A stretch of DNA of 64,000 bases, taken from contig CM120649.1 of the NCBI GenBank assembly GCA_051362555.1, forward strand, positions 9,734,001 to 9,798,000. Reading direction: 5' to 3'. Every line of letters begins with the position of its first letter. The first letter of the stretch is position 1. Positions 18,733 to 48,514 of the stretch are shown in pieces. The notes under the pieces are model-generated. The model was given only the letters and a program-made list of their open reading frames with translations. It ran no database searches and was not told the DNA's origin. Origin of the DNA: Lingula anatina. Its lineage: Eukaryota; Animalia; Brachiopoda. The position numbers and the translations under genes were made by a program.

Positions 18733-18793
<61 letters not shown>

Positions 18794-20443: not shown

Positions 20444-21201
20444 TATATCTGCCATCTCCTTCCACTGCTATGGGCTGTCCTTCACACCCTCTCAGATCTT
20501 GAATGCGGCGTAGATTCTCACGGCGCTGTTGCATGTCAGCTTTCTTTAGCTTGGTTATGGCAGCACCGACTTTATTTGCTTGCTTTTGCATGGATGATGC
20601 ACTGGGCGGGGTCACATTGGTCGCCATTACAATCTGCCTCATGGCCGTGTTGGAGATCATGTTTTGTGACAGGCCTACTTGCAAGCCTGCATTCACAGTT
20701 GCTGCTCTCCTGCTACGCTGCTTGCTCTCGACTTCATTGTACAATTTCTGTTTCCCTGTCCTGTACTGACATGTCACATTTTAGTCCCATTGACCAAGCC
20801 ACTCCCCACTTGCTCTCTGCCTCTCTGTCCCGAACCATTGAGCCAGTGCACTCAGCTGTATGCTCTGACAAGACTTTGTTGACCAGATTGACAAGTTTTT
20901 CTGGTGAAACCAACTTGTATTCATCATCTGGGGGTTGGGGCTGGCTACTGGACACACTCTCTGACTGGGCCCTCCTAGGTCTGAGTATGATGGGTGCATC
21001 AGGGTTGCTGTTGAGGGTTGTGGGTGGCCCGACAGGGGGTGGAGAGGAGGCTGCCTGGTACAATTCTTGGCTGGGTCTGATGTATCTTCTCACAATAGGT
21101 TCTGGAGGCTGGTCAGACTGCTGACGTCCAGTGGAAAACTTGTTTCCCTTCACAAATACACTTTTTTTTCGTTTTTTCCAGCTACCTTTACCGTACGGCA
21201 T
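20444..21201 (-). pseudogene. DDD/E transposase, 5' fragment (diverged copy 0)
   Basis: MPYGKGSW... to IAVEGDGRY, then breaks off. 2-bp deletion near 20772. Confidence 0.8.
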
Positions 21202-21912
21202 GGTGGATGGAAAGTGACTTCTGAGTCCAGAGGCAGAGACGGGGCATTTTATAGCATCAGCTGCCCATTGTCTCTCCCAGGTGTGCAGGAAAGCAGGATA
21301 CATGACAACAAAAGGTATGAACAATGATTGGAAGTGGAGTTTCCTGTAAACAGCAAACTGCATGGCCCCAGTGCAGGAGGGGGGTCCCCAGCTTAGCAAG
21401 TGAGTATTGTTCTGCAGGGAGGGACAGGAAACATGATTTCCTGTTTCCTCACAAGACACACAAACAAACATAAACAACAGTTGTGACAATTAACCTTGCA
21501 CTTGAGTTTAAGTAATTTTTAAATATTTTAAAATCTTTTTATTAGTAATTTTCCACTTCTTACACTTTATTTCTCAGCAAAGTGCACTTAAACCAGTCTC
21601 AACTGGTTAAGATGCTTATCTCAAATTATCTCACATGTCCAGTATCAGGTGTCAAAATTTCAAAACAATTGAAACAAATTCAAGCACAGAAATTTGCATT
21701 TAACTTTTTATCACTCATGAAATTTTGCTTTCTCACCAGGTGCAATATTGGCTAAAGTGGCCCATACAGCAACCACATTTTCAACTTGACAGGGCTCAGT
21801 CATCAAGAGACCGTTCTCAGTCATATTGGGCGGAGCAGTTGGCAGTGCATTAAGGTTTTAATTTTTGGTGTCAGAAGGTAAGAACAGGGGGGTGGGTGGT
21901 GGTTTGTGTGAA

Positions 21913-22373
21913 GGGCAGAAACCACTAAATCAGCCTGTCAGCACCTGTTATAGACGAATGTAGTTCAGTGAGAGAAAATTAGTGCTTTTTTCCATTTTTT
22001 TTCCTGGCATTTCTTGTGTGTTGCTAGGGTTAATTTTGGTATCAACTAGCAGGCTAGGGTGTATACTACTGCCAGTTTTTTTTTCAGGACCAGGCTCAGG
22101 TGCGGTGCAGTCGTGAGACCTCTGGCGGAGGGGGCTACTGACTGTGAGTGGTGCAGTGGTTTGTTTACAAACAGAGGGGTGCAAATGTTCAAATGATGCC
22201 GGTAAGCAAGAAAGTCTGATATGACAGTATATTTTTTTGCCATTGGGAGTTATGTCAGTGTGTCTACTGTCCATGGGGATGGGAAATGTTTCACAGAGTA
22301 ATTTTGTTCATGCAGTATTGAAGGCATTTCTTAGTATGGTCGTCAATGGGAAATTATTTGGTGGTTTCTGCCC
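21913..22373. repeat. LTDR 1 (461 bp, with TIRs)
   Basis: TGAA|GGGCAGAAACCACTAAAT...ATTTGGTGGTTTCTGCCC|TGAA. Confidence 0.88.
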
Positions 22374-22436
22374 TGAACAGGAAAAGTGACAACTGTTCAC
22401 TTTTGGCTCAGTTTCTAAATTTAGAGCAGCACAGGA

Positions 22437-22444
22437 TATAAAAG
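22437..22444 (+). promoter_or_regulatory. Candidate TATA box of the nuclease gene (repeated in every unit)
   Basis: TATAAAAG 37 bp upstream of the ATG at 22474. Confidence 0.4.
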
Positions 22445-22473
22445 GGTGGTCTTGCATCATTTCACAGACAAAA

Positions 22474-22839
22474 ATGGCTAATCAGCAATTATTTGAAGAA
22501 TTGAGAGAGAAATAACATGCAAAATTGCATAACACACAGGAGGGATAGTGTTGGCTTTGGACTGGGGGCACCAGTTGTTCCAGTGGGGTCCGTTATGGGA
22601 AGATGAGGGTTACTTTTGCTGGGGCCAGACACTCTGTTACTGTTGGAGTGCACAGGGTGGTATTTATGCTTAAGGAGAGGGTTTTACTCATTCCGAGAGG
22701 GACAGAAGTACATGTATCTCACCTGTGTGGAGTCACAGCAGAGCCTCACGGAATCAACAATAACAGATTACATTGTCATACTGTGGGCAGGTGCCTCGGA
22801 CACGGACAGGGGCCAAATTGTGTATATGATAATTATTAA
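22474..22839 (+). pseudogene. His-Me finger (homing endonuclease-like) nuclease, copy 1
   Basis: MANQQLFEELREK*HAKLHNTQEG*CWLWTG...RYGKMRV...VHRVVFML...VSHLC..AEPHGINNNRLHC...CLGHG..PNC. Two in-frame stops; the usual CxNPxHL segment is absent. Confidence 0.8.
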
Positions 22840-23016
22840 TATTATTGTTATTATTATAATGATAATTCCGAGAGGGATTAAATTTACATTTACTTAGTTT
22901 ATAGATTTCTCAATTATATTTCTAAGTTTTAAGACTAGAAGAAAGACCAACAAACTTTTTTTATATTTCACAACCAGTTTATTGCAGAGTAGTATCTTGA
23001 AATTATACATTTTCTT

Positions 23017-24938
23017 TTAATTGCTTGCTCTCTTTGAATAGCTGTGATCAGGAAATACAAGTTTTGGCATAGATATGCATCTTCTGTAGTCATTATTACT
23101 TTTCAATGCTTTAGATCTGTCATATCTTCTGTAACGGCTAAGGATTCTCCATCTAGCTCTTAACTTAAATGCAACTGTCTTTTTGTGATTTATTCTCATT
23201 TTCATCTGTTTTTCATCTTTCTCTAGATATTTAACAACTGAAGAAGTGGGCCTAACACCAACAGAGGCCATTTTACTCAAAGTGGATTGCTTAAGTCAAT
23301 TATTCCTCAAGTGAACTGCACTGTGAATCCTGCCTTCGAAGTTCCGCGAAAAGGTGACAACTTTATTATTAGTTTTCTGAAATATCCTGTTTAAAGACTC
23401 CACTTTTTGTGTGTTGGTATTAAGTTTTGTTGATTCAATGGCCCTTGGGCCCAGTCTATAATTTAGGCACTGTCTTAAGATGTGCATATCTTCAGAGTTG
23501 CTAAAGTCTAGTTTGCCTTTCTCAGGGAAAATAGTTTCCGAGCCACCTTTGCATACATAAGAATACTTCAAACAATTTTCACAATCACCAGTGTAACAAC
23601 TAATTATAGAGTCAGTGACATAGCTCAGTGCTCTTTTAATCAATTCTATGTCACCTTTATTTGCTTTAAAGCAGGCATCAAATTCAGCATAGCAGCGCAT
23701 TGCTATGCACTGAGCAAAGCGTTTTTGCATTTTGTCTCTTGAGTACTTAGTTTTCCCTGGAAAAACTTGACCGGAAAATGGTGCTTTTTCAATTTGCTTT
23801 TTCAGAGCTTAAGTGAAGTGGCGCGTGTCCCGAAGACTTTCGACATCATCACATACAGAGTGGGCTTGGCTATCCCCATCAGTGGTTAAGGCACCAACTG
23901 TGACCTCTCCAGAAATTTCCTCAAGAATCTGCTGCATGGCACGTTTCTCATCTCCAATGCTGTCGTCTTCTCGCAGATTGGCCGTGCAGATACCACTGTG
24001 CTCTGGACAGGATACATCTTCCCCTCTACTTCTCAGCAGGTGAGCTTTGTGGCATAACTTGTTTCCGGTGTAAACACCAATGATGTCTTTTTTGCTGGTT
24101 ACATTTTCCGCAACAGTGTATACAGTCTGAGTGGCTGGCTGGTATGGTGTTTTGTTCCCTCCACTGAAAAGACTATTATTATATCTGCCATCTCCTTCCA
24201 CTGCTATGGGCTGTCCTTCACACCCTCTCAGATCTTGAATGCGGCGTAGATTCTCACGGCGCTGTTGCATGTCAGCTTTGTTTAGCTTGGTTATGGCAGC
24301 ACCGACTTTATTTGCTTGCTTTTGCATGGATGATGCACTGGGCGGGGTCACATTGGTCGCCATTAGAATCTGCCTCATGGCCGTGTTGGAGATCATGTTT
24401 TGTGACAGGCCTACTTGCAAGCCTGCATTCACCGTTGCTGCTCTCCTGCCACACTGCTTGCTCTCGACTTCATTGTACAATTTCTGTTTCCCTGTCCTGT
24501 ACTGACATGTGTCACATTTAATCCCATTGACCAAGCCACTCCCCACTTGCTCTCTGCCTCTCTGTCCCGAACCATTGAGCCAGTGCACTCAGCTGTATGC
24601 TCTGACAAGACTTTGTTGACCAGATTGACAAGTTTTTCTGGTGAAACCAACTTGTATTCATCATCTGGGGGTTGGGGCTGGCTACTGGACACACTCTCTG
24701 ACTGGGCCCTCCTAGGTCTGAGTATGACGGGTGCATCAGGGTTGCTGTTGAGGGTTGTGGGTGGCCCGACAGGGGGTGGAGAGGAGGCTGCCTGGTACAA
24801 TTCTTGGCTGGGTCTGATGTATCTTCTCACAATAGGCTCTGGAGGCTGGTCAGACTGCTGACGTCCAGTGGAAAACTTGTTTCCCTTCACAAATACACTT
24901 TTTCTTCGTTTTTTCCAGCTACCTTTACCGTACGGCAT
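23017..24938 (-). pseudogene. DDD/E transposase (Kolobok/Mutator-like domain), copy 1
   Basis: ~640 codons when repaired. Motifs AVEGDGRYNN, GNKLC, LTTDGDS, DTRHF, TNTQKVESLN. 1-bp frameshift near 24519; in-frame stops at 23809 and 23296. Candidate TATA on - strand near 24990 and AATAAA at 22978-22983. Confidence 0.85.
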
Positions 24939-25649
24939 GGTGGATGGAAAGTGACTTCTGAGTCCAGAGGCAGAGACAGGGCATTTTATAGCATCAGCTG
25001 CCCATTGTCTCTCCCAGGTGTGCAGGAAAGCAGGATACATGACAACAAAAGGTATGAACAATGATTGGAAGTGGAGTTTCCTGTAAACAGCAAACTGCAT
25101 GGCCCCAGTGCAGGAGGGGGGTCCCCAGCTTAGCAAGTGAGTATTGTTCTGCAGGGAGGGACAGGAAACATGATTTCCTGTTTCCTCACAAGACACACAA
25201 ACAAACATAAACAACAGTTGTGACAATTAACCTTGCACTTGAGTTTAAGTAATTTTTAAATATTTTAAAATCTTTTTATTAGTAATTTTCCACTTTTTAC
25301 ACTTTATTTCTCAGCAAAGTGCACTTAAACCAGTCTCAACTGGTTAAGATGCTTATCTCAAATTATCTCACATGTCCAGTATCAGGTGTCAAAATTTCAA
25401 AACAATTGAAACAAATTCAAGCACAGAAATTTGCATTTAACTTTTTATCACTCATGAAATTTTGCTTTCTCACCAGGTGCAATATTGGCTAAAGTGGCCC
25501 ATACAGCAACCACATTTTCAACTTGACAGGGCTCAGTCATCAAGAGACCGTTCTCAGTCATATTGGGCGGAGCAGTTGGCATTGCAATAAGGTTATAATT
25601 TTTGGTGTCAGAAGGTAAGAACAGGGGGGTGGGTGGTGGTTTGTGTGAA

Positions 25650-26110
25650 GGGCAGAAACCACTAAATCAGCCTATCAGCACCTGTTATAGACGAATTTAG
25701 TTCAGTGAGAGAAAATTAGTGCTTTTTTTCCATTTTTTTCCTGGCATTTCTTGTGTGTTGCTAGGGTTAATTTTGGTATCAACTAGCAGGCTAGGGTGTA
25801 TACTACTGCCAGTTTTTTTTTCAGGACCAGGCTCAGGTGCGGTGCAGTCGTGAGACCTCTGGCGGAGGGGGCTACTGACTGTGAGTGGTGCAGTGGTTTG
25901 TTTACAAACAGAGGGGTGCAAATGTTCAAATGATGCCGGTAAGCAAGAAAGTCTGATATGACAGTATATTTTTTTGCCATTGGGAGTTATGTCAGTGTGT
26001 CTACTGTCCATGGGGATGGGAAATGTTTCACAGAGTAATTTTGTTCATGCAGTATTGAAGGCATTTCTTAGTATGGTCGTCAATGGGAAATTATTTGGTG
26101 GTTTCTGCCC
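25650..26110. repeat. LTDR 2
   Basis: Same TIRs and TGAA flanks; variant B. Confidence 0.88.
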
Positions 26111-26210
26111 TGAACAGGAAAAGTGACAACTGTTCACTTTTGGCTCAGTTTCTAAATTTAGAGCAGCACAGGATATAAAAGGGTGGTCTTGCATCATTTC
26201 ACAGACAAAA

Positions 26211-26576
26211 ATGGCTAATCAGCAATTATTTGAAGAATTGAGAGAGAAATAACATGCAAAATTGCATAACACACAGGAGGGATAGTGTTGGCTTTGGACT
26301 GGGGGCACCAGTTGTTCCAGTGGGGTCCGTTATGGGAAGATGAGGGTTACTTTTGCTGGGGCCAGACACTCTGTTACTGTTGGAGTGCACAGGGTGGTAT
26401 TTATGCTTAAGGAGAGGGTTTTACTCATTCCGAGAGGGACAGAAGTACATGTATCTCACCTGTGTGGAGTCACAGCAGAGCCTCACGGAATCAACAATAA
26501 CAGATTACATTGTCATACTGTGGGCAGGTGCCTCGGACACGGACAGGGGCCAAATTGTGTATATGATAATTATTAA
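26211..26576 (+). pseudogene. His-Me finger nuclease, copy 2
   Basis: Same as copy 1, offset +3737. Confidence 0.8.
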
Positions 26577-26753
26577 TATTATTGTTATTATTATAATGAT
26601 AATTCCGAGAGGGATTAAATTTACATTTACTTAGTTTATAGATTTCTCAATTATATTTCTAAGTTTTAAGACTAGAAGAAAGACCAACAAACTTTTTTTA
26701 TATTTCACAACCAGTTTATTGCAGAGTAGTATCTTGAAATTATACATTTTCTT

Positions 26754-28675
26754 TTAATTGCTTGCTCTCTTTGAATAGCTGTGATCAGGAAATACAAGTT
26801 TTGGCATAGATATGCATCTTCTGTAGTCATTATTACTTTTCAATGCTTTAGATCTGTCATATCTTCTGTAACGGCTAAGGATTCTCCATCTAGCTCTTAA
26901 CTTAAATGCAACTGTCTTTTTGTGATTTATTCTCATTTTCATCTGTTTTTCATCTTTCTCTAGATATTTAACAACTGAAGAAGTGGGCCTAACACCAACA
27001 GAGGCCATTTTACTCAAAGTGGATTGCTTAAGTCAATTATTCCTCAAGTGAACTGCACTGTGAATCCTGCCTTCGAAGTTCCGCGAAAAGGTGACAGCTT
27101 TATTATTAGTTTTCTGAAATATCCTGTTTAAAGACTCCACTTTTTGTGTGTTGGTATTAAGTTTTGTTGATTCAATGGCCCTTGGGCCCAGTCTATAATT
27201 TAGGCACTGTCTTAAGATGTGCATATCTTCAGAGTTGCTAAAGTCTAGTTTGCCTTTCTCAGGGAAAATAGTTTCCGAGCCACCTTTGCATACATAAGAA
27301 TACTTCAAACAATTTTCACAATCACCAGTGTAACAACTAATTATAGAGTCAGTGACATAGCTCAGTGCTCTTTTAATCAATTCTATGTCACCTTTATTTG
27401 CTTTAAAGCAGGCATCAAATTCAGCATAGCAGCGCATTGCTATGCACTGAGCAAAGCGTTTTTGCATTTTGTCTCTTGAGTACTTAGTTTTCCCTGGAAA
27501 AACTTGACCGGAAAATGGTGCTTTTTCAATTTGCTTTTTCAGAGCTTAAGTGAAGTGGCGCGTGTCCCGAAGACTTTCGACATCATCACATACAGAGTGG
27601 GCTTGGCTATCCCCATCAGTGGTTAAGGCACCAACTGTGACCTCTCCAGAAATTTCCTCAAGAATCTGCTGCATGGCACGTTTCTCATCTCCAATGCTGT
27701 CGTCTTCTCGCAGATTGGCCGTGCAGATACCACTGTGCTCTGGACAGGATACATCTTCCCCTCTACTTCTCAGCAGGTGAGCTTTGTGGCATAACTTGTT
27801 TCCGGTGTAAACACCAATGATGTCTTTTTTGCTGGTTACATTTTCCGCAACAGTGTATACAGTCTGAGTGGCTGGCTGGTATGGTGTTTTGTTCCCTCCA
27901 CTGAAAAGACTATTATTATATCTGCCATCTCCTTCCACTGCTATGGGCTGTCCTTCACACCCTCTCAGATCTTGAATGCGGCGTAGATTCTCACGGCGCT
28001 GTTGCATGTCAGCTTTGTTTAGCTTGGTTATGGCAGCACCGACTTTATTTGCTTGCTTTTGCATGGATGATGCACTGGGCGGGGTCACATTGGTCGCCAT
28101 TAGAATCTGCCTCATGGCCGTGTTGGAGATCATGTTTTGTGACAGGCCTACTTGCAAGCCTGCATTCACCGTTGCTGCTCTCCTGCCACACTGCTTGCTC
28201 TCGACTTCATTGTACAATTTCTGTTTCCCTGTCCTGTACTGACATGTGTCACATTTAATCCCATTGACCAAGCCACTCCCCACTTGCTCTCTGCCTCTCT
28301 GTCCCGAACCATTGAGCCAGTGCACTCAGCTGTATGCTCTGACAAGACTTTGTTGACCAGATTGACAAGTTTTTCTGGTGAAACCAACTTGTATTCATCA
28401 TCTGGGGGTTGGGGCTGGCTACTGGACACACTCTCTGACTGGGCCCTCCTAGGTCTGAGTATGACGGGTGCATCAGGGTTGCTGTTGAGGGTTGTGGGTG
28501 GCCCGACAGGGGGTGGAGAGGAGGCTGCCTGGTACAATTCTTGGCTGGGTCTGATGTATCTTCTCACAATAGGCTCTGGAGGCTGGTCAGACTGCTGACG
28601 TCCAGTGGAAAACTTGTTTCCCTTCACAAATACACTTTTTCTTCGTTTTTTCCAGCTACCTTTACCGTACGGCAT
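26754..28675 (-). pseudogene. DDD/E transposase, copy 2
   Basis: Same lesions as copy 1; one V>A change. Confidence 0.85.
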
Positions 28676-29386
28676 GGTGGATGGAAAGTGACTTCTGAGT
28701 CCAGAGGCAGAGACAGGGCATTTTATAGCATCAGCTGCCCATTGTCTCTCCCAGGTGTGCAGGAAAGCAGGATACATGACAACAAAAGGTATGAACAATG
28801 ATTGGAAGTGGAGTTTCCTGTAAACAGCAAACTGCATGGCCCCAGTGCAGGAGGGGGGTCCCCAGCTTAGCAAGTGAGTATTGTTCTGCAGGGAGGGACA
28901 GGAAACATGATTTCCTGTTTCCTCACAAGACACACAAACAAACATAAACAACAGTTGTGACAATTAACCTTGCACTTGAGTTTAAGTAATTTTTAAATAT
29001 TTTAAAATCTTTTTATTAGTAATTTTCCACTTTTTACACTTTATTTCTCAGCAAAGTGCACTTAAACCAGTCTCAACTGGTTAAGATGCTTATCTCAAAT
29101 TATCTCACATGTCCAGTATCAGGTGTCAAAATTTCAAAACAATTGAAACAAATTCAAGCACAGAAATTTGCATTTAACTTTTTATCACTCATGAAATTTT
29201 GCTTTCTCACCAGGTGCAATATTGGCTAAAGTGGCCCATACAGCAACCACATTTTCAACTTGACAGGGCTCAGTCATCAAGAGACCGTTCTCAGTCATAT
29301 TGGGCGGAGCAGTTGGCATTGCAATAAGGTTATAATTTTTGGTGTCAGAAGGTAAGAACAGGGGGGTGGGTGGTGGTTTGTGTGAA

Positions 29387-29847
29387 GGGCAGAAACCACT
29401 AAATCAGCCTATCAGCACCTGTTATAGACGAATGTAGTTCAGTGAGAGAAAATTAGTGCTTTTTTCCATTTTTTTTCCTGGCATTTCTTGTGTGTTGCTA
29501 GGGTTAATTTTGGTATCAACTAGCAGGCTAGGGTGTATACTACTGCCAGTTTTTTTTTCAGGACCAGGCTCAGGTGCGGTGCAGTCGTGAGACCTCTGGC
29601 GGAGGGGGCTACTGACTGTGAGTGGTGCAGTGGTTTGTTTACAAACAGAGGGGTGCAAATGTTCAAATGATGCCGGTAAGCAAGAAAGTCTGATATGACA
29701 GTATATTTTTTTGCCATTGGGAGTTATGTCAGTGTGTCTACTGTCCATGGGGATGGGAAATGTTTCACAGAGTAATTTTGTTCATGCAGTATTGAAGGCA
29801 TTTCTTAGTATGGTCGTCAATGGGAAATTATTTGGTGGTTTCTGCCC
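29387..29847. repeat. LTDR 3
   Basis: Same TIRs; variant A. Confidence 0.88.
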
Positions 29848-29947
29848 TGAACAGGAAAAGTGACAACTGTTCACTTTTGGCTCAGTTTCTAAATTTAGAG
29901 CAGCACAGGATATAAAAGGGTGGTCTTGCATCATTTCACAGACAAAA

Positions 29948-30313
29948 ATGGCTAATCAGCAATTATTTGAAGAATTGAGAGAGAAATAACATGCAAAATT
30001 GCATAACACACAGGAGGGATAGTGTTGGCTTTGGACTGGGGGCACCAGTTGTTCCAGTGGGGTCCGTTATGGGAAGATGAGGGTTACTTTTGCTGGGGCC
30101 AGACACTCTGTTACTGTTGGAGTGCACAGGGTGGTATTTATGCTTAAGGAGAGGGTTTTACTCATTCCGAGAGGGACAGAAGTACATGTATCTCACCTGT
30201 GTGGAGTCACAGCAGAGCCTCACGGAATCAACAATAACAGATTACATTGTCATACTGTGGGCAGGTGCCTCGGACACGGACAGGGGCCAAATTGTGTATA
30301 TGATAATTATTAA
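29948..30313 (+). pseudogene. His-Me finger nuclease, copy 3
   Basis: Same as copy 1. Confidence 0.8.
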
Positions 30314-30490
30314 TATTATTGTTATTATTATAATGATAATTCCGAGAGGGATTAAATTTACATTTACTTAGTTTATAGATTTCTCAATTATATTTCTAAG
30401 TTTTAAGACTAGAAGAAAGACCAACAAACTTTTTTTATATTTCACAACCAGTTTATTGCAGAGTAGTATCTTGAAATTATACATTTTCTT

Positions 30491-32412
30491 TTAATTGCTT
30501 GCTCTCTTTGAATAGCTGTGATCAGGAAATACAAGTTTTGGCATAGATATGCATCTTCTGTAGTCATTATTACTTTTCAATGCTTTAGATCTGTCATATC
30601 TTCTGTAACGGCTAAGGATTCTCCATCTAGCTCTTAACTTAAATGCAACTGTCTTTTTGTGATTTATTCTCATTTTCATCTGTTTTTCATCTTTCTCTAG
30701 ATATTTAACAACTGAAGAAGTGGGCCTAACACCAACAGAGGCCATTTTACTCAAAGTGGATTGCTTAAGTCAATTATTCCTCAAGTGAACTGCACTGTGA
30801 ATCCTGCCTTCGAAGTTCCGCGAAAAGGTGACAACTTTATTATTAGTTTTCTGAAATATCCTGTTTAAAGACTCCACTTTTTGTGTGTTGGTATTAAGTT
30901 TTGTTGATTCAATGGCCCTTGGGCCCAGTCTATAATTTAGGCACTGTCTTAAGATGTGCATATCTTCAGAGTTGCTAAAGTCTAGTTTGCCTTTCTCAGG
31001 GAAAATAGTTTCCGAGCCACCTTTGCATACATAAGAATACTTCAAACAATTTTCACAATCACCAGTGTAACAACTAATTATAGAGTCAGTGACATAGCTC
31101 AGTGCTCTTTTAATCAATTCTATGTCACCTTTATTTGCTTTAAAGCAGGCATCAAATTCAGCATAGCAGCGCATTGCTATGCACTGAGCAAAGCGTTTTT
31201 GCATTTTGTCTCTTGAGTACTTAGTTTTCCCTGGAAAAACTTGACCGGAAAATGGTGCTTTTTCAATTTGCTTTTTCAGAGCTTAAGTGAAGTGGCGCGT
31301 GTCCCGAAGACTTTCGACATCATCACATACAGAGTGGGCTTGGCTATCCCCATCAGTGGTTAAGGCACCAACTGTGACCTCTCCAGAAATTTCCTCAAGA
31401 ATCTGCTGCATGGCACGTTTCTCATCTCCAATGCTGTCGTCTTCTCGCAGATTGGCCGTGCAGATACCACTGTGCTCTGGACAGGATACATCTTCCCCTC
31501 TACTTCTCAGCAGGTGAGCTTTGTGGCATAACTTGTTTCCGGTGTAAACACCAATGATGTCTTTTTTGCTGGTTACATTTTCCGCAACAGTGTATACAGT
31601 CTGAGTGGCTGGCTGGTATGGTGTTTTGTTCCCTCCACTGAAAAGACTATTATTATATCTGCCATCTCCTTCCACTGCTATGGGCTGTCCTTCACACCCT
31701 CTCAGATCTTGAATGCGGCGTAGATTCTCACGGCGCTGTTGCATGTCAGCTTTGTTTAGCTTGGTTATGGCAGCACCGACTTTATTTGCTTGCTTTTGCA
31801 TGGATGATGCACTGGGCGGGGTCACATTGGTCGCCATTAGAATCTGCCTCATGGCCGTGTTGGAGATCATGTTTTGTGACAGGCCTACTTGCAAGCCTGC
31901 ATTCACCGTTGCTGCTCTCCTGCCACACTGCTTGCTCTCGACTTCATTGTACAATTTCTGTTTCCCTGTCCTGTACTGACATGTGTCACATTTAATCCCA
32001 TTGACCAAGCCACTCCCCACTTGCTCTCTGCCTCTCTGTCCCGAACCATTGAGCCAGTGCACTCAGCTGTATGCTCTGACAAGACTTTGTTGACCAGATT
32101 GACAAGTTTTTCTGGTGAAACCAACTTGTATTCATCATCTGGGGGTTGGGGCTGGCTACTGGACACACTCTCTGACTGGGCCCTCCTAGGTCTGAGTATG
32201 ACGGGTGCATCAGGGTTGCTGTTGAGGGTTGTGGGTGGCCCGACAGGGGGTGGAGAGGAGGCTGCCTGGTACAATTCTTGGCTGGGTCTGATGTATCTTC
32301 TCACAATAGGCTCTGGAGGCTGGTCAGACTGCTGACGTCCAGTGGAAAACTTGTTTCCCTTCACAAATACACTTTTTCTTCGTTTTTTCCAGCTACCTTT
32401 ACCGTACGGCAT
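30491..32412 (-). pseudogene. DDD/E transposase, copy 3
   Basis: Same lesions as copy 1. Confidence 0.85.
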
Positions 32413-37321: not shown

Positions 37322-37421
37322 TGAACAGGAAAAGTGACAACTGTTCACTTTTGGCTCAGTTTCTAAATTTAGAGCAGCACAGGATATAAAAGGGTGGTCT
37401 TGCATCATTTCACAGACAAAA

Positions 37422-37964: not shown

Positions 37965-39886
37965 TTAATTGCTTGCTCTCTTTGAATAGCTGTGATCAGG
38001 AAATACAAGTTTTGGCATAGATATGCATCTTCTGTAGTCATTATTACTTTTCAATGCTTTAGATCTGTCATATCTTCTGTAACGGCTAAGGATTCTCCAT
38101 CTAGCTCTTAACTTAAATGCAACTGTCTTTTTGTGATTTATTCTCATTTTCATCTGTTTTTCATCTTTCTCTAGATATTTAACAACTGAAGAAGTGGGCC
38201 TAACACCAACAGAGGCCATTTTACTCAAAGTGGATTGCTTAAGTCAATTATTCCTCAAGTGAACTGCACTGTGAATCCTGCCTTCGAAGTTCCGCGAAAA
38301 GGTGACAACTTTATTATTAGTTTTCTGAAATATCCTGTTTAAAGACTCCACTTTTTGTGTGTTGGTATTAAGTTTTGTTGATTCAATGGCCCTTGGGCCC
38401 AGTCTATAATTTAGGCACTGTCTTAAGATGTGCATATCTTCAGAGTTGCTAAAGTCTAGTTTGCCTTTCTCAGGGAAAATAGTTTCCGAGCCACCTTTGC
38501 ATACATAAGAATACTTCAAACAATTTTCACAATCACCAGTGTAACAACTAATTATAGAGTCAGTGACATAGCTCAGTGCTCTTTTAATCAATTCTATGTC
38601 ACCTTTATTTGCTTTAAAGCAGGCATCAAATTCAGCATAGCAGCGCATTGCTATGCACTGAGCAAAGCGTTTTTGCATTTTGTCTCTTGAGTACTTAGTT
38701 TTCCCTGGAAAAACTTGACCGGAAAATGGTGCTTTTTCAATTTGCTTTTTCAGAGCTTAAGTGAAGTGGCGCGTGTCCCGAAGACTTTCGACATCATCAC
38801 ATACAGAGTGGGCTTGGCTATCCCCATCAGTGGTTAAGGCACCAACTGTGACCTCTCCAGAAATTTCCTCAAGAATCTGCTGCATGGCACGTTTCTCATC
38901 TCCAATGCTGTCGTCTTCTCGCAGATTGGCCGTGCAGATACCACTGTGCTCTGGACAGGATACATCTTCCCCTCTACTTCTCAGCAGGTGAGCTTTGTGG
39001 CATAACTTGTTTCCGGTGTAAACACCAATGATGTCTTTTTTGCTGGTTACATTTTCCGCAACAGTGTATACAGTCTGAGTGGCTGGCTGGTATGGTGTTT
39101 TGTTCCCTCCACTGAAAAGACTATTATTATATCTGCCATCTCCTTCCACTGCTATGGGCTGTCCTTCACACCCTCTCAGATCTTGAATGCGGCGTAGATT
39201 CTCACGGCGCTGTTGCATGTCAGCTTTGTTTAGCTTGGTTATGGCAGCACCGACTTTATTTGCTTGCTTTTGCATGGATGATGCACTGGGCGGGGTCACA
39301 TTGGTCGCCATTAGAATCTGCCTCATGGCCGTGTTGGAGATCATGTTTTGTGACAGGCCTACTTGCAAGCCTGCATTCACCGTTGCTGCTCTCCTGCCAC
39401 ACTGCTTGCTCTCGACTTCATTGTACAATTTCTGTTTCCCTGTCCTGTACTGACATGTGTCACATTTAATCCCATTGACCAAGCCACTCCCCACTTGCTC
39501 TCTGCCTCTCTGTCCCGAACCATTGAGCCAGTGCACTCAGCTGTATGCTCTGACAAGACTTTGTTGACCAGATTGACAAGTTTTTCTGGTGAAACCAACT
39601 TGTATTCATCATCTGGGGGTTGGGGCTGGCTACTGGACACACTCTCTGACTGGGCCCTCCTAGGTCTGAGTATGACGGGTGCATCAGGGTTGCTGTTGAG
39701 GGTTGTGGGTGGCCCGACAGGGGGTGGAGAGGAGGCTGCCTGGTACAATTCTTGGCTGGGTCTGATGTATCTTCTCACAATAGGCTCTGGAGGCTGGTCA
39801 GACTGCTGACGTCCAGTGGAAAACTTGTTTCCCTTCACAAATACACTTTTTCTTCGTTTTTTCCAGCTACCTTTACCGTACGGCAT
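37965..39886 (-). pseudogene. DDD/E transposase, copy 5
   Basis: Same lesions as copy 1. Confidence 0.85.
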
Positions 39887-40597
39887 GGTGGATGGAAAGT
39901 GACTTCTGAGTCCAGAGGCAGAGACAGGGCATTTTATAGCATCAGCTGCCCATTGTCTCTCCCAGGTGTGCAGGAAAGCAGGATACATGACAACAAAAGG
40001 TATGAACAATGATTGGAAGTGGAGTTTCCTGTAAACAGCAAACTGCATGGCCCCAGTGCAGGAGGGGGGTCCCCAGCTTAGCAAGTGAGTATTGTTCTGC
40101 AGGGAGGGACAGGAAACATGATTTCCTGTTTCCTCACAAGACACACAAACAAACATAAACAACAGTTGTGACAATTAACCTTGCACTTGAGTTTAAGTAA
40201 TTTTTAAATATTTTAAAATCTTTTTATTAGTAATTTTCCACTTTTTACACTTTATTTCTCAGCAAAGTGCACTTAAACCAGTCTCAACTGGTTAAGATGC
40301 TTATCTCAAATTATCTCACATGTCCAGTATCAGGTGTCAAAATTTCAAAACAATTGAAACAAATTCAAGCACAGAAATTTGCATTTAACTTTTTATCACT
40401 CATGAAATTTTGCTTTCTCACCAGGTGCAATATTGGCTAAAGTGGCCCATACAGCAACCACATTTTCAACTTGACAGGGCTCAGTCATCAAGAGACCGTT
40501 CTCAGTCATATTGGGCGGAGCAGTTGGCATTGCAATAAGGTTATAATTTTTGGTGTCAGAAGGTAAGAACAGGGGGGTGGGTGGTGGTTTGTGTGAA

Positions 40598-41058
40598 GGG
40601 CAGAAACCACTAAATCAGCCTATCAGCACCTGTTATAGACGAATGTAGTTCAGTGAGAGAAAATTAGTGCTTTTTTCCATTTTTTTTCCTGGCATTTCTT
40701 GTGTGTTGCTAGGGTTAATTTTGGTATCAACTAGCAGGCTAGGGTGTATACTACTGCCAGTTTTTTTTTCAGGACCAGGCTCAGGTGCGGTGCAGTCGTG
40801 AGACCTCTGGCGGAGGGGGCTACTGACTGTGAGTGGTGCAGTGGTTTGTTTACAAACAGAGGGGTGCAAATGTTCAAATGATGCCGGTAAGCAAGAAAGT
40901 CTGATATGACAGTATATTTTTTTGCCATTGGGAGTTATGTCAGTGTGTCTACTGTCCATGGGGATGGGAAATGTTTCACAGAGTAATTTTGTTCATGCAG
41001 TATTGAAGGCATTTCTTAGTATGGTCGTCAATGGGAAATTATTTGGTGGTTTCTGCCC
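40598..41058. repeat. LTDR 6
   Basis: Same TIRs; variant A. Confidence 0.88.
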
Positions 41059-41158
41059 TGAACAGGAAAAGTGACAACTGTTCACTTTTGGCTCAGTTTC
41101 TAAATTTAGAGCAGCACAGGATATAAAAGGGTGGTCTTGCATCATTTCACAGACAAAA

Positions 41159-41524
41159 ATGGCTAATCAGCAATTATTTGAAGAATTGAGAGAGAAATAA
41201 CATGCAAAATTGCATAACACACAGGAGGGATAGTGTTGGCTTTGGACTGGGGGCACCAGTTGTTCCAGTGGGGTCCGTTATGGGAAGATGAGGGTTACTT
41301 TTGCTGGGGCCAGACACTCTGTTACTGTTGGAGTGCACAGGGTGGTATTTATGCTTAAGGAGAGGGTTTTTCTCATTCCGAGAGGGACAGAAGTACATGT
41401 ATCTCACCTGTGTGGAGTCACAGCAGAGCCTCACGGAATCAACAATAACAGATTACATTGTCATACTGTGGGCAGGTGCCTCGGACACGGACAGGGGCCA
41501 AATTGTGTATATGATAATTATTAA
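41159..41524 (+). pseudogene. His-Me finger nuclease, copy 6
   Basis: As copy 1, with an L>F change shared with copy 7. Confidence 0.8.
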
Positions 41525-41701
41525 TATTATTGTTATTATTATAATGATAATTCCGAGAGGGATTAAATTTACATTTACTTAGTTTATAGATTTCTCAATT
41601 ACATTTCTAAGTTTTAAGACTAGAAGAAAGACCAACAAACTTTTTTTATATTTCACAACCAGTTTATTGCAGAGTAGTATCTTGAAATTATACATTTTCT
41701 T

Positions 41702-43623
41702 TTAATTGCTTGCTCTCTTTGAATAGCTGTGATCAGGAAATACAAGTTTTGGCATAGATATGCATCTTCTGTAGTCATTATTACTTTTCAATGCTTTAGA
41801 TCTGTCATATCTTCTGTAACGGCTAAGGATTCTCCATCTAGCTCTTAACTTAAATGCAACTGTCTTTTTGTGATTTATTCTCATTTTCATCTGTTTTTCA
41901 TCTTTCTCTAGATATTTAACAACTGAAGAAGTGGGCCTAACACCAACAGAGGCCATTTTACTCAAAGTGGATTGCTTAAGTCAATTATTCCTCAAGTGAA
42001 CTGCACTGTGAATCCTGCCTTCGAAGTTCCGCGAAAAGGTGACAACTTTATTATTAGTTTTCTGAAATATCCTGTTTAAAGACTCCACTTTTTGTGTGTT
42101 GGTATTAAGTTTTGTTGATTCAATGGCCCTTGGGCCCAGTCTATAATTTAGGCACTGTCTTAAGATGTGCATATCTTCAGAGTTGCTAAAGTCTAGTTTG
42201 CCTTTCTCAGGGAAAATAGTTTCCGAGCCACCTTTGCATACATAAGAATACTTCAAACAATTTTCACAATCACCAGTGTAACAACTAATTATAGAGTCAG
42301 TGACATAGCTCAGTGCTCTTTTAATCAATTCTATGTCACCTTTATTTGCTTTAAAGCAGGCATCAAATTCAGCATAGCAGCGCATTGCTATGCACTGAGC
42401 AAAGCGTTTTTGCATTTTGTCTCTTGAGTACTTAGTTTTCCCTGGAAAAACTTGACCGGAAAATGGTGCTTTTTCAATTTGCTTTTTCAGAGCTTAAGTG
42501 AAGTGGCGCGTGTCCCGAAGACTTTCGACATCATCACATACAGAGTGGGCTTGGCTATCCCCATCAGTGGTTAAGGCACCAACTGTGACCTCTCCAGAAA
42601 TTTCCTCAAGAATCTGCTGCATGGCACGTTTCTCATCTCCAATGCTGTCGTCTTCTCGCAGATTGGCCGTGCAGATACCACTGTGCTCTGGACAGGATAC
42701 ATCTTCCCCTCTACTTCTCAGCAGGTGAGCTTTGTGGCATAACTTGTTTCCGGTGTAAACACCAATGATGTCTTTTTTGCTGGTTACATTTTCCGCAACA
42801 GTGTATACAGTCTGAGTGGCTGGCTGGTATGGTGTTTTGTTCCCTCCACTGAAAAGACTATTATTATATCTGCCATCTCCTTCCACTGCTATGGGCTGTC
42901 CTTCACACCCTCTCAGATCTTGAATGCGGCGTAGATTCTCACGGCGCTGTTGCATGTCAGCTTTGTTTAGCTTGGTTATGGCAGCACCGACTTTATTTGC
43001 TTGCTTTTGCATGGATGATGCACTGGGCGGGGTCACATTGGTCGCCATTAGAATCTGCCTCATGGCCGTGTTGGAGATCATGTTTTGTGACAGGCCTACT
43101 TGCAAGCCTGCATTCACCGTTGCTGCTCTCCTGCCACACTGCTTGCTCTCGACTTCATTGTACAATTTCTGTTTCCCTGTCCTGTACTGACATGTGTCAC
43201 ATTTAATCCCATTGACCAAGCCACTCCCCACTTGCTCTCTGCCTCTCTGTCCCGAACCATTGAGCCAGTGCACTCAGCTGTATGCTCTGACAAGACTTTG
43301 TTGACCAGATTGACAAGTTTTTCTGGTGAAACCAACTTGTATTCATCATCTGGGGGTTGGGGCTGGCTACTGGACACACTCTCTGACTGGGCCCTCCTAG
43401 GTCTGAGTATGACGGGTGCATCAGGGTTGCTGTTGAGGGTTGTGGGTGGCCCGACAGGGGGTGGAGAGGAGGCTGCCTGGTACAATTCTTGGCTGGGTCT
43501 GATGTATCTTCTCACAATAGGCTCTGGAGGCTGGTCAGACTGCTGACGTCCAGTGGAAAACTTGTTTCCCTTCACAAATACACTTTTTCTTCGTTTTTTC
43601 CAGCTACCTTTACCGTACGGCAT
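41702..43623 (-). pseudogene. DDD/E transposase, copy 6
   Basis: Same lesions as copy 1. Confidence 0.85.
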
Positions 43624-44334
43624 GGTGGATGGAAAGTGACTTCTGAGTCCAGAGGCAGAGACAGGGCATTTTATAGCATCAGCTGCCCATTGTCTCTCCC
43701 AGGTGTGCAGGAAAGCAGGATACATGACAACAAAAGGTATGAACAATGATTGGAAGTGGAGTTTCCTGTAAACAGCAAACTGCATGGCCCCAGTGCAGGA
43801 GGGGGGTCCCCAGCTTAGCAAGTGAGTATTGTTCTGCAGGGAGGGACAGGAAACATGATTTCCTGTTTCCTCACAAGACACACAAACAAACATAAACAAC
43901 AGTTGTGACAATTAACCTTGCACTTGAGTTTAAGTAATTTTTAAATATTTTAAAATCTTTTTATTAGTAATTTTCCACTTTTTACACTTTATTTCTCAGC
44001 AAAGTGCACTTAAACCAGTCTCAACTGGTTAAGATGCTTATCTCAAATTATCTCACATGTCCAGTATCAGGTGTCAAAATTTCAAAACAATTGAAACAAA
44101 TTCAAGCACAGAAATTTGCATTTAACTTTTTATCACTCATGAAATTTTGCTTTCTCACCAGGTGCAATATTGGCTAAAGTGGCCCATACAGCAACCACAT
44201 TTTCAACTTGACAGGGCTCAGTCATCAAGAGACCGTTCTCAGTCATATTGGGCGGAGCAGTTGGCATTGCAATAAGGTTATAATTTTTGGTGTCAGAAGG
44301 TAAGAACAGGGGGGTGGGTGGTGGTTTGTGTGAA

Positions 44335-44795
44335 GGGCAGAAACCACTAAATCAGCCTATCAGCACCTGTTATAGACGAATGTAGTTCAGTGAGAGAAAA
44401 TTAGTGCTTTTTTCCATTTTTTTTCCTGGCATTTCTTGTGTGTTGCTAGGGTTAATTTTGGTATCAACTAGCAGGCTAGGGTGTATACTACTGCCAGTTT
44501 TTTTTTCAGGACCAGGCTCAGGTGCGGTGCAGTCGTGAGACCTCTGGCGGAGGGGGCTACTGACTGTGAGTGGTGCAGTGGTTTGTTTACAAACAGAGGG
44601 GTGCAAATGTTCAAATGATGCCGGTAAGCAAGAAAGTCTGATATGACAGTATATTTTTTTGCCATTGGGAGTTATGTCAGTGTGTCTACTGTCCATGGGG
44701 ATGGGAAATGTTTCACAGAGTAATTTTGTTCATGCAGTATTGAAGGCATTTCTTAGTATGGTCGTCAATGGGAAATTATTTGGTGGTTTCTGCCC
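44335..44795. repeat. LTDR 7
   Basis: Same TIRs; variant A. Confidence 0.88.
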
Positions 44796-44895
44796 TGAAC
44801 AGGAAAAGTGACAACTGTTCACTTTTGGCTCAGTTTCTAAATTTAGAGCAGCACAGGATATAAAAGGGTGGTCTTGCATCATTTCACAGACAAAA

Positions 44896-45261
44896 ATGGC
44901 TAATCAGCAATTATTTGAAGAATTGAGAGAGAAATAACATGCAAAATTGCATAACACACAGGAGGGATAGTGTTGGCTTTGGACTGGGGGCACCAGTTGT
45001 TCCAGTGGGGTCCGTTATGGGAAGATGAGGGTTACTTTTGCTGGGGCCAGACACTCTGTTACTGTTGGAGTGCACAGGGTGGTATTTATGCTTAAGGAGA
45101 GGGTTTTTCTCATTCCGAGAGGGACAGAAGTACATGTATCTCACCTGTGTGGAGTCACAGCAGAGCCTCACGGAATCAACAATAACAGATTACATTGTCA
45201 TACTGTGGGCAGGTGCCTCGGACACGGACAGGGGCCAAATTGTGTATATGATAATTATTAA
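44896..45261 (+). pseudogene. His-Me finger nuclease, copy 7
   Basis: As copy 6. Confidence 0.8.
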
Positions 45262-45438
45262 TATTATTGTTATTATTATAATGATAATTCCGAGAGGGAT
45301 TAAATTTACATTTACTTAGTTTATAGATTTCTCAATTATATTTCTAAGTTTTAAGACTAGAAGAAAGACCAACAAACTTTTTTTATATTTCACAACCAGT
45401 TTATTGCAGAGTAGTATCTTGAAATTATACATTTTCTT

Positions 45439-47360
45439 TTAATTGCTTGCTCTCTTTGAATAGCTGTGATCAGGAAATACAAGTTTTGGCATAGATATGC
45501 ATCTTCTGTAGTCATTATTACTTTTCAATGCTTTAGATCTGTCATATCTTCTGTAACGGCTAAGGATTCTCCATCTAGCTCTTAACTTAAATGCAACTGT
45601 CTTTTTGTGATTTATTCTCATTTTCATCTGTTTTTCATCTTTCTCTAGATATTTAACAACTGAAGAAGTGGGCCTAACACCAACAGAGGCCATTTTACTC
45701 AAAGTGGATTGCTTAAGTCAATTATTCCTCAAGTGAACTGCACTGTGAATCCTGCCTTCGAAGTTCCGCGAAAAGGTGACAACTTTATTATTAGTTTTCT
45801 GAAATATCCTGTTTAAAGACTCCACTTTTTGTGTGTTGGTATTAAGTTTTGTTGATTCAATGGCCCTTGGGCCCAGTCTATAATTTAGGCACTGTCTTAA
45901 GATGTGCATATCTTCAGAGTTGCTAAAGTCTAGTTTGCCTTTCTCAGGGAAAATAGTTTCCGAGCCACCTTTGCATACATAAGAATACTTCAAACAATTT
46001 TCACAATCACCAGTGTAACAACTAATTATAGAGTCAGTGACATAGCTCAGTGCTCTTTTAATCAATTCTATGTCACCTTTATTTGCTTTAAAGCAGGCAT
46101 CAAATTCAGCATAGCAGCGCATTGCTATGCACTGAGCAAAGCGTTTTTGCATTTTGTCTCTTGAGTACTTAGTTTTCCCTGGAAAAACTTGACCGGAAAA
46201 TGGTGCTTTTTCAATTTGCTTTTTCAGAGCTTAAGTGAAGTGGCGCGTGTCCCGAAGACTTTCGACATCATCACATACAGAGTGGGCTTGGCTATCCCCA
46301 TCAGTGGTTAAGGCACCAACTGTGACCTCTCCAGAAATTTCCTCAAGAATCTGCTGCATGGCACGTTTCTCATCTCCAATGCTGTCGTCTTCTCGCAGAT
46401 TGGCCGTGCAGATACCACTGTGCTCTGGACAGGATACATCTTCCCCTCTACTTCTCAGCAGGTGAGCTTTGTGGCATAACTTGTTTCCGGTGTAAACACC
46501 AATGATGTCTTTTTTGCTGGTTACATTTTCCGCAACAGTGTATACAGTCTGAGTGGCTGGCTGGTATGGTGTTTTGTTCCCTCCACTGAAAAGACTATTA
46601 TTATATCTGCCATCTCCTTCCACTGCTATGGGCTGTCCTTCACACCCTCTCAGATCTTGAATGCGGCGTAGATTCTCACGGCGCTGTTGCATGTCAGCTT
46701 TGTTTAGCTTGGTTATGGCAGCACCGACTTTATTTGCTTGCTTTTGCATGGATGATGCACTGGGCGGGGTCACATTGGTCGCCATTAGAATCTGCCTCAT
46801 GGCCGTGTTGGAGATCATGTTTTGTGACAGGCCTACTTGCAAGCCTGCATTCACCGTTGCTGCTCTCCTGCCACACTGCTTGCTCTCGACTTCATTGTAC
46901 AATTTCTGTTTCCCTGTCCTGTACTGACATGTGTCACATTTAATCCCATTGACCAAGCCACTCCCCACTTGCTCTCTGCCTCTCTGTCCCCAACCATTGA
47001 GCCAGTGCACTCAGCTGTATGCTCTGACAAGACTTTGTTGACCAGATTGACAAGTTTTTCTGGTGAAACCAACTTGTATTCATCATCTGGGGGTTGGGGC
47101 TGGCTACTGGACACACTCTCTGACTGGGCCCTCCTAGGTCTGAGTATGACGGGTGCATCAGGGTTGCTGTTGAGGGTTGTGGGTGGCCCGACAGGGGGTG
47201 GAGAGGAGGCTGCCTGGTACAATTCTTGGCTGGGTCTGATGTATCTTCTCACAATAGGCTCTGGAGGCTGGTCAGACTGCTGACGTCCAGTGGAAAACTT
47301 GTTTCCCTTCACAAATACACTTTTTCTTCGTTTTTTCCAGCTACCTTTACCGTACGGCAT
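45439..47360 (-). pseudogene. DDD/E transposase, copy 7
   Basis: Same lesions as copy 1; one R>G change. Confidence 0.85.
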
Positions 47361-48071
47361 GGTGGATGGAAAGTGACTTCTGAGTCCAGAGGCAGAGACA
47401 GGGCATTTTATAGCATCAGCTGCCCATTGTCTCTCCCAGGTGTGCAGGAAAGCAGGATACATGACAACAAAAGGTATGAACAATGATTGGAAGTGGAGTT
47501 TCCTGTAAACAGCAAACTGCATGGCCCCAGTGCAGGAGGGGGGTCCCCAGCTTAGCAAGTGAGTATTGTTCTGCAGGGAGGGACAGGAAACATGATTTCC
47601 TGTTTCCTCACAAGACACACAAACAAACATAAACAACAGTTGTGACAATTAACCTTGCACTTGAGTTTAAGTAATTTTTAAATATTTTAAAATCTTTTTA
47701 TTAGTAATTTTCCACTTTTTACACTTTATTTCTCAGCAAAGTGCACTTAAACCAGTCTCAACTGGTTAAGATGCTTATCTCAAATTATCTCACATGTCCA
47801 GTATCAGGTGTCAAAATTTCAAAACAATTGAAACAAATTCAAGCACAGAAATTTGCATTTAACTTTTTATCACTCATGAAATTTTGCTTTCTCACCAGGT
47901 GCAATATTGGCTAAAGTGGCCCATACAGCAACCACATTTTCAACTTGACAGGGCTCAGTCATCAAGAGACCGTTCTCAGTCATATTGGGCAGAGCAGTTG
48001 GCATTGCAATAAGGTTATAATTTTTGGTGTCAGAAGGTAAGAACAGGGGGGTGGGTGGTGGTTTGTGTGAA

Positions 48072-48514
48072 GGGCAGAAACCACTAAATCAGCCTATCAG
48101 CACCTGTTATAGACGAATTTAGTTCAGTGAGAGAAAATTAGTGCTTTTTTTCCATTTTTTTCCTGGCATTTCTTGTGTGTTGCTAGGGTTAATTTTGGTA
48201 ACAACTAGCAGGCTAGGGTGTATACTACTGCCAGTTTTTTTTTCAGGACCAGGCTCAGGTACCTCTGGCGGAGGGGGCTACTGACTGTGAGTGGTGCAGT
48301 GGTTTGTTTACAAACAGAGGGGTGCACATGTTCAAGTGATGCAGGTAAGCAAGAAAGTCTGATGACAGTATATTTTTTTGCTATTGGGAGTTATGTCAGT
48401 GTGTCTACTGTCCATGGGGATGGGAAATGTTTCACAGAGTAATTTTGTTCATGCAGTATTGAAGGCATTTCTTAGTATGGTCGTCAATGGGAAATTATTT
48501 GGTGGTTTCTCTCC
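48072..48514. repeat. LTDR 8 (terminal, diverged, 443 bp)
   Basis: Left TIR intact. 16-bp and 2-bp deletions plus several substitutions in the distal part. Right TIR altered to GTGGTTTCTCTCC, followed by TGCA and unrelated sequence. Confidence 0.85.

What the first reader, a model, noticed from the sequence alone, without database searches (positions are those of the whole stretch)
20444..48514. 28-kb multimer of a composite-type eukaryotic DNA transposon: TIR-bearing long direct repeats, a DDE transposase and a homing-type nuclease
Seen: partial INT, then (LTDR-INT)x7, then LTDR. Each 461-bp LTDR has 18-bp TIRs and TGAA on both sides. The 3276-bp INT carries a ~640-codon DDD/E transposase and a convergent ~120-codon His-Me finger gene, each with a candidate TATA and poly(A) signal. 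The array ends exactly at an LTDR TIR. Established: this is the architecture of KolobokP (Kolobok superfamily), which resembles bacterial composite transposons and LTR elements, so the system type is described. This family, its TGAA junctions and the 7.5-unit multimer may be new, and the nuclease's role is unresolved as far as I know.
Basis: partly seen in the sequence, partly recalled or inferred. Interest (0 to 1): 0.85.

Follow-up and report, generated by a model that had tools for sequence, protein, structure and literature searches.

The report
Tandem array of dead KolobokP transposons
The window holds a head-to-tail chain of seven nearly identical copies of a known kind of animal DNA transposon (KolobokP) in which both genes are broken in every copy, so the chain likely grew recently by uneven DNA exchange between its end repeats and not through its own enzymes.

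Summary
Observation confirmed: partial INT, (LTDR-INT)x7, LTDR, period 3737 bp. It is a new family of the described KolobokP lineage. Multimers and TGAA target duplications are already in Kojima and Bao 2022, and this scan saw a crippled KolobokP array on other DNA before.

The array therefore expanded after both genes died. All 6 internal LTDRs are mosaics of the two outer LTDRs, switching within LTDR nt 25-130, as unequal LTDR-to-LTDR exchange predicts.

Public runs of the same organism hold a sister unit with an open transposase and, by inference, the same dead nuclease, and RNA reads carry the open transposase alleles. Other copies keep the nuclease motif. The element's own nuclease was not needed in cis; supply in trans is not excluded. 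Copy number is unverified (no genome, no long reads). Modest interest: a known system, but a usable natural test of the untested nuclease model.

The parts
20444..21912 (-). INT0: truncated older internal region (element 5' 1.47 kb). Carries the first ~255 transposase codons with its own 2-bp frameshift; the nuclease half is missing
   Evidence: about 1.2% from INT7
21913..22373 (-). LTDR1, 461 bp, 18-bp TIRs, TGAA on both sides; donor of the right part (plus-strand view) of all internal LTDRs
22374..25649 (-). INT1, 3276 bp. INT2-7 repeat every 3737 bp: 26111-29386, 29848-33123, 33585-36860, 37322-40597, 41059-44334, 44796-48071
   Evidence: 5 variable columns among 7 copies, mean pairwise difference 0.05%
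22474..22839 (+). His-Me finger (I-PpoI-like) nuclease pseudogene: TAA at codon 14, TAG at codon 25, 27-nt in-frame deletion after SHLC; same in all 7 units
23017..24938 (-). Kolobok DDE transposase pseudogene (~640 codons): 1-bp deletion near 24516, TAA at 23809-23811, TGA at 23296-23298; same in all 7 units
24984..24990 (-). TATAAAA 52 nt upstream of the transposase ATG; RNA coverage from sister copies starts just downstream
25650..26110 (-). LTDR2 (mosaic type B). LTDR3 29387-29847 (A), LTDR4 33124-33584 (B), LTDR5 36861-37321 (A), LTDR6 40598-41058 (A), LTDR7 44335-44795 (A)
25674..25779 (.). Exchange window, LTDR nt 25-130 (shown for LTDR2): internal LTDRs switch from LTDR8 alleles to LTDR1 alleles between nt 25-48 (4 of 6) or nt 83-130 (2 of 6)
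48072..48514 (-). LTDR8, 443 bp, outer and most diverged LTDR (12 substitutions and 2 deletions against LTDR1), damaged outer TIR; the element's 5' end
48515..48518 (.). TGCA, candidate target-site duplication; empty-site reads of the host repeat diverge exactly before 48515; the matching left copy is absent
   Evidence: loose ends in X1, X8, X18; TSD status inferred

Best explanation
This is an (LTDR-INT)7-LTDR multimer of a KolobokP DNA transposon whose transposase and His-Me nuclease genes are broken in every unit, and it likely grew in place by host-driven unequal exchange between LTDRs. Order of events (steps 1-4 inferred from shared and private changes): (1) a subfamily lost its nuclease; (2) one copy inserted into a host repeat at TGCA; (3) a first duplication gave the INT0 and INT1-7 lineages, which drifted about 1.2% apart, took different frameshifts and lost the left end; (4) very recently an exchange between LTDR8 and LTDR1 inside LTDR nt 25-130 made a unit with a mosaic LTDR, and further unequal exchange copied it to seven. 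Shown directly: the architecture, the shared breaks, the mosaic LTDRs and the 0.05% spread. No unit can supply either enzyme, so any element-encoded activity would have to come from other copies in the genome.
For: All six breaks are present in 7 of 7 full units, against 5 variable columns in 3276. In all 6 internal junction segments the 14 INT substitutions, both frameshift indels and LTDR nt 25 follow the INT7/LTDR8 side, and every marker from nt 130 on follows LTDR1. This is the chimera that LTDR8 x LTDR1 exchange makes (model 5a of PMC9587614). Both lineages carry derived changes: other copies have the 16 bp and the GCCC end that LTDR8 lacks, and loose ends show LTDR8's letters at nt 272 and 281. 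INT0 and INT1-7 share 3 letters (47054, 47483, 47545) at which X1 and X8 both read otherwise, so they are sisters. X1's unit appears to share the nuclease breaks: all 19 differences of that piece are listed, none at the stops, and it has only 3 gap letters. By parsimony the nuclease was dead before both duplications. No homing-site-like palindrome is enriched in the exchange window (500 of 500 shuffles reach the best score).
Against: Both switch intervals are short (23 and 47 bp), while the longest identical tracts between the two lineages lie in INT (317 and 272 bp), where passive recombination should be favoured. Chance of two exchanges within 105 bp: 0.11 over the 1931-bp homology, 0.40 over the LTDR alone. 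This is suggestive of a hotspot but not significant, and one patchily repaired event could give both types. Copies with the nuclease motif exist in the organism, so help in trans is possible. Two INT sites (46991, 47991) are private to INT7 and do not fit the simple mosaic. X7 carries the same sample label as X1 but shows no contig with the window's TAG allele (0 of depth 509.9), which I cannot explain. The left TSD is missing and copy number is unverified.
Confidence: 0.55

Rival explanations
1. Induced unequal crossover in trans: an intact His-Me nuclease from another copy cuts inside LTDR nt 25-130, and repair off the wrong LTDR adds units (model 5c of Kojima and Bao).
For: Both switch types lie in one 105-bp stretch of the LTDR and none in the 1.47 kb of INT homology (chance that both fall in the LTDR 0.057). 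X7, X8 and X3 contigs read TAC at the TAG, and X7 and X8 hold the missing 27 nt.
Against: No semi-palindrome enrichment in the window. The TAA at codon 14 was not resolved in other copies, so no fully open nuclease gene was shown. Nuclease-sense RNA depth is only about 2-4 reads. The numbers are not significant.
Confidence: 0.2
2. Circle route: LTDR1 x LTDR8 recombination excised an LTDR-INT circle that was reinserted or rolled out in tandem, possibly helped by transposase from a sister copy (IS26-like, model 5b).
For: Such a circle carries the same mosaic LTDR. Units are almost identical. A sister subfamily has an open, transcribed transposase. X1 holds the whole unit as one self-closing 3756-nt contig.
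Against: One rolling event should give one LTDR type, but two alternate (B A B A A A). Self-closing contigs arise from any monomer or array in an assembly graph, and several related loci show the same terminal overlap, so they are no evidence for circles.
Confidence: 0.13
3. Assembly artefact: the true locus has fewer (or more) units, and the A/B pattern is mixed haplotypes.
For: 28 kb of 99.95% identical units is hard to span. No genome, reads or spanning contig were available.
Against: The outer units are distinct. Internal differences are substitutions and linked four-marker blocks, with no homopolymer indels among the 7 INTs. Internal LTDRs are recombinant types that match neither outer LTDR.
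Confidence: 0.1
4. The 461-bp repeat is an independent MITE inserted at TGAA in a plain transposon that then became a satellite.
For: TGAA lies on both sides of 7 of 8 LTDRs. LTDR bins are about 6 times deeper than INT bins in X8.
Against: INT ends in X1, X3, X7 and X8 are joined to the same LTDR. The LTDR start matches KolobokP-6_CorFlu at 26 of 31 letters. The array ends at a TIR. Solo LTDRs are normal for KolobokP.
Confidence: 0.02

Closest known systems
KolobokP lineage of Kolobok DNA transposons (Kojima and Bao 2022, PMC9587614), ~450-bp LTDR type
   Same: LTDR-INT-LTDR architecture, 461-bp LTDR, 18-bp TIR with GG...CC ends, DDE transposase with a convergent His-Me nuclease, monomer 4198 bp, (LTDR-INT)n-LTDR multimer sharing LTDRs. 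The LTDR start matches KolobokP-6_CorFlu at 26 of 31 letters by eye and resembles KolobokP-4_MoPh.
   Different: TIR words are not at any LTDR start in the paper's consensus file. The transposase groups with 7 unnamed proteins (support 1.0, best 63%); the best named relative is 43%. Seven units against five seen in the parts read. Both genes are dead in every unit, the left end and TSD are lost, and the INT ends are a direct TGAA.
I-PpoI His-Cys box homing endonuclease (PDB 1evw, 1a73)
   Same: A profile of the window's nuclease plus 2 relatives hits I-PpoI at E 1.6e-5 over the SHLCH..C....HL..E....N core.
   Different: The window's copy lacks the 9 residues holding the equivalents of C105 and H110 and has two early stops. 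No target site is known.
IS26-type pseudo-composite transposons and TRIM or LTR tandem arrays (as discussed in PMC9587614)
   Same: Direct end repeats shared between tandem units; a unit of one repeat plus interior.
   Different: Eukaryotic, with the transposase inside INT and no reverse transcriptase. A likeness of architecture only, not tested.

Membership tests
KolobokP | INT flanked by long terminal direct repeats of about 450 or 660 bp | tested here: met
   461 bp in 7 of 8 LTDRs, 443 bp in the last
KolobokP | Each LTDR has short TIRs with 5'-RR...YY-3' ends | tested here: met
   18 bp, GG...CC, 1 mismatch; 3 mismatches in LTDR8; subterminal likeness to published LTDR starts
KolobokP | DDD/E transposase with C/DxxH signature and two zinc fingers | tested here: met
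   PF20700 E 4e-44; motifs EGDGRY, TTDGDS, RDTRH, NTQKVES, KLCHKA...CPEHSGIC and CYTGDCENC...C aligned with 14 relatives; the gene itself is broken
KolobokP | Downstream His-Me finger nuclease on the opposite strand | tested here: met
   Present as a pseudogene. Two PF05551 relatives at E 5e-15 and 1e-7, I-PpoI hit. Pfam gave no hit on the window's own copy. Same layout in 23 of 36 related loci
KolobokP | 3-5-bp TSD at the outer ends of monomers and multimers | tested here: inconclusive
   Right end abuts TGCA at an empty-site breakpoint; left end is deleted; no genome to search
KolobokP | Solo LTDRs and monomers elsewhere in the genome | tested here: inconclusive
   X8 depth 15,802-20,758 in LTDR-only bins against 975-4,243 in INT bins, and mixed flanks behind the TIR (agreement 0.49); summed contig depth is not a copy number
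KolobokP | Transposase falls inside the KolobokP clade of Kolobok | tested here: inconclusive
   Nested among loci with the convergent nuclease and mollusc proteins in a 41-sequence tree, but without outgroups from other Kolobok lineages or the paper's named sequences
KolobokP | Host in one of the seven listed animal phyla | not testable with these tools
   Organism name is coded; a flanking LINE has no close named relative (best 37%); the Atlas gave no answer
Active autonomous element | Open transposase and nuclease frames | tested here: not met
   Six shared breaks in 7 of 7 units

The most novel reading that the evidence does not exclude
The LTDR carries a dedicated exchange site at nt 25-130 that family proteins work in trans (the nuclease of motif-intact copies or the transcribed transposase of the nuclease-dead sister subfamily), so this array would be the first sequence footprint locating where KolobokP multimers are made, with dead units being pumped into a young satellite.
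Probability: 0.2. Interest if true: 0.6.

Novelty: new member of a known kind. Interest (0 to 1): 0.35.

Why it matters
The role of the KolobokP nuclease is still a model awaiting experiment (PMC13565253, 2026). This locus narrows the question. A nuclease-dead lineage multimerised, apparently twice, so the nuclease is not needed in cis. The mosaic LTDRs give a 105-bp candidate interval for a cleavage assay. The organism appears to hold both motif-intact nuclease copies and a transcribed open transposase, so it is a practical test system. It is also a clean picture of a dead transposon turning into a 3.7-kb tandem repeat. It is not a new kind of system.

Tried and rejected
No genome is held, so solo LTDRs, monomers, TSDs and INT-INT junctions could not be searched. 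Host phylum was not found: the LINE search gave no close named hit, 51 flank frames gave no host gene in Pfam (51 of 66 frames sent), and the Atlas did not answer. The run search listed no RNA holder; that blank is not used as evidence. A homing-site palindrome in LTDR nt 16-140 was looked for and is no better than shuffles. The idea that both flanks are the two halves of one TIR element found only a 9-bp match at E 3.9 and was dropped. The self-closing X1 contig was rejected as evidence for circles. Protein-motif searches of the paper's supplement did not name a nearest family: LSQNM, GGKTP, VHLRNN and RCLGH gave 0 hits and YTGNKLC 1 hit without a visible name; gapped alignments can hide words. 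A name search in supplement 4 found nothing because that file holds coordinates and is cut. The scan's look-up by sequence found nothing. No fold or complex job was run, as it would not change the reading.
Full report
Observation. Self-BLAST shows a 3737-bp period from about 20440 to 48516. LTDR1-7 are 461 bp with 18-bp TIRs and TGAA on both sides. LTDR8 is 443 bp, has two extra substitutions in its outer TIR and is followed by TGCA. The element reads on the minus strand. No whole genome is held, so copy number rests on the assembly.

Genes. The minus-strand frame is a Kolobok-type DDE transposase: PF20700 at E 4e-44, 160 relatives among 4868 candidates, best 63%, with the DDE residues, DxxH signature and both zinc fingers aligned. 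The convergent plus-strand frame matches two PF05551 proteins, and their joint profile hits I-PpoI at E 1.6e-5. Of 36 metagenome loci of transposase relatives, 23 carry such a nuclease. In a midpoint-rooted tree of 41 sequences the transposase groups with seven unnamed proteins (support 1.0) among those loci and named mollusc proteins; no outgroup was available.

Both genes are dead in every unit. The transposase has a 1-bp deletion, a TAA and a TGA. The nuclease has a TAA at codon 14, a TAG at codon 25 and lacks nine residues after SHLC. All 23 related nucleases keep that stretch, which holds the equivalents of I-PpoI C105 and H110; the paper lists H110 among the catalytic motif residues. All six breaks are in 7 of 7 full units, whose INTs differ at only 5 columns, mean 0.05%. 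INT0 has a different, 2-bp frameshift at nearly the same place and is about 1.2% from INT7. The expansion is therefore younger than the death of both genes (inference).

Mosaic LTDRs. Aligning INT0+LTDR1 with the seven matching segments shows that in all six internal junctions the 14 INT substitutions, the frameshift indels and LTDR nt 25 follow the INT7/LTDR8 side, while every marker from nt 130 to 459 follows LTDR1. The four markers at nt 48-83 split them: LTDR3, 5, 6 and 7 follow LTDR1, and LTDR2 and 4 follow LTDR8. Two INT sites are private to INT7. This is the chimera expected from an LTDR8 x LTDR1 exchange, whether by unequal crossover or through a circle (models). The switch intervals are 23 and 47 bp, while the longest identical tracts lie in INT (317 and 272 bp). 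The chance of two exchanges within 105 bp is 0.11 over the full homology and 0.40 over the LTDR alone, and one patchily repaired event could give both types. This is a lead, not a shown hotspot. No palindrome is enriched there.

Other copies in the same organism. Ten of 21 listed runs, from 4 studies and one coded organism, hold part of the unit; I laid 7 different runs. X1 has the whole unit as one 3756-nt contig that lacks all three transposase breaks. All 19 differences of its nuclease-side piece are listed, none falls on the nuclease stops, and it has 3 gap letters, so it appears to share the dead nuclease (inferred from the count). RNA run X12 (about 6% read) shows minus-strand transcripts across the transposase, starting just downstream of the TATA box. 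They carry the open alleles in 55 of 55, 19 of 19 and 36 of 37 reads, and X1-type letters at several sites. X18 agrees at the two stops (16 of 16, 5 of 5) but is mostly more diverged. These runs need not come from carriers of this array. On the nuclease, X7, X8 and X3 contigs all read TAC at the TAG, and X7 and X8 loose ends show the missing 27 nt; the TAA row was among those not shown. Against a tidy picture, X7 has X1's sample label yet shows none of the window's alleles at 22548-22618. INT ends are joined to the LTDR in X1, X3, X7 and X8, and LTDR bins are about six times deeper than INT bins in X8, in keeping with solo LTDRs, though summed depth is no copy number. INT0 and INT1-7 share three letters at which X1 and X8 both differ, so both duplications at this locus likely postdate nuclease loss.

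Ends. Reads of the right-hand host repeat diverge exactly before 48515 in X1, X8 and X18, which fixes the element end and makes TGCA the candidate TSD. The 30 letters shown for that empty site begin with the same 8-mer that stands at the array's left junction, 20447. This hints that the left end was lost at a microhomology; it was not tested.

Comparison with what is known. PMC9587614 defines KolobokP. I read its abstract, main text parts 1-4 of 6, Table S1 in full and parts 1-2 of 7 of supplement 2, and ran word searches in the supplements; file 4 is held cut. It describes multimers, solo LTDRs and non-autonomous multimers, notes some families without an apparent nuclease, and shows TGAA TSDs and a five-unit array. 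This family's TIR words are not at any LTDR start in its consensus file (positive control found), but the element's first 31 letters match KolobokP-6_CorFlu at 26. A search for KolobokP found two papers. The second, PMC13565253 (one passage read), says the nuclease model awaits confirmation. Two wider searches (listings only, 20 of 48 and 12 of 143 shown) showed no test of it. The scan's own notes list four other KolobokP finds, one a tandem array of a crippled copy (not checked).

Verdict. The array is a new family of a known kind, and I put membership of KolobokP at about 0.95. Best mechanism: passive unequal LTDR exchange (0.55), against nuclease in trans (0.2), circle route (0.13), assembly artefact (0.1) and independent MITE (0.02). 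Interest 0.35.

Noticed in passing
window 48515-49560: The right flank is a high-copy host repeat that is transcribed and spliced on the minus strand (joints 48745-49005, 48745-49367 and 49066-49366 with CT..AC ends in X12 and X18); no Pfam hit in three frames tested.
   Followed up: partly
window 20444-20454 and 48515: The empty-site letters shown before 48515 start with the 8-mer found at the array's left junction, suggesting the left end was deleted at a microhomology between flank and INT0.
   Followed up: partly
window 45453-45620 (transposase 3' end, unit 7 coordinates): 18 X12 RNA reads jump back by 168 nt in frame without GT-AG ends, and depth falls beyond 45452: a tandem duplication in an expressed copy or a circular RNA.
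   Followed up: no
window 46458-47338: Six X12 reads show a plus-strand (antisense to transposase) GT..AG splice of 879 nt.
   Followed up: no
window 20776-20790 and 24510-24521: INT0 and INT1-7 carry different frameshifts (2-bp and 1-bp deletions) within about 10 bp of each other in the transposase.
   Followed up: partly
window 6906-12000, minus strand: Near-complete LINE: ORF1 in two pieces with an RNase H1 N-terminal domain (PF01693) and a GDSL esterase-like domain (PF13472, below cut-off), ORF2 endonuclease-RT split by one stop; best relative 37%.
   Followed up: partly
window 16358-18906, minus strand: Second, broken LINE fragment with RT and zf-RVT domains.
   Followed up: no
window 19770-20020: A nearly perfect palindromic MITE of about 250 bp with GGC...GCC ends and TAA on both sides, Harbinger-like by recall (seen).
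   Followed up: no
window 1-971, 12399-15439, 18733-19767, 50291-52216: Interspersed family of about 0.9-1.5 kb with internal sub-repeats, including a tandem pair at 12399-15401.
   Followed up: no
window 56159-57110, plus strand: Weak DUF4218 hit (E 0.0017, below cut-off), possibly a CACTA-type transposase relic by recall.
   Followed up: no
L002 1-5516: A metagenome locus with about 1.5 tandem units of a related element (1.4-kb direct repeat at 93%), another KolobokP-like multimer.
   Followed up: no
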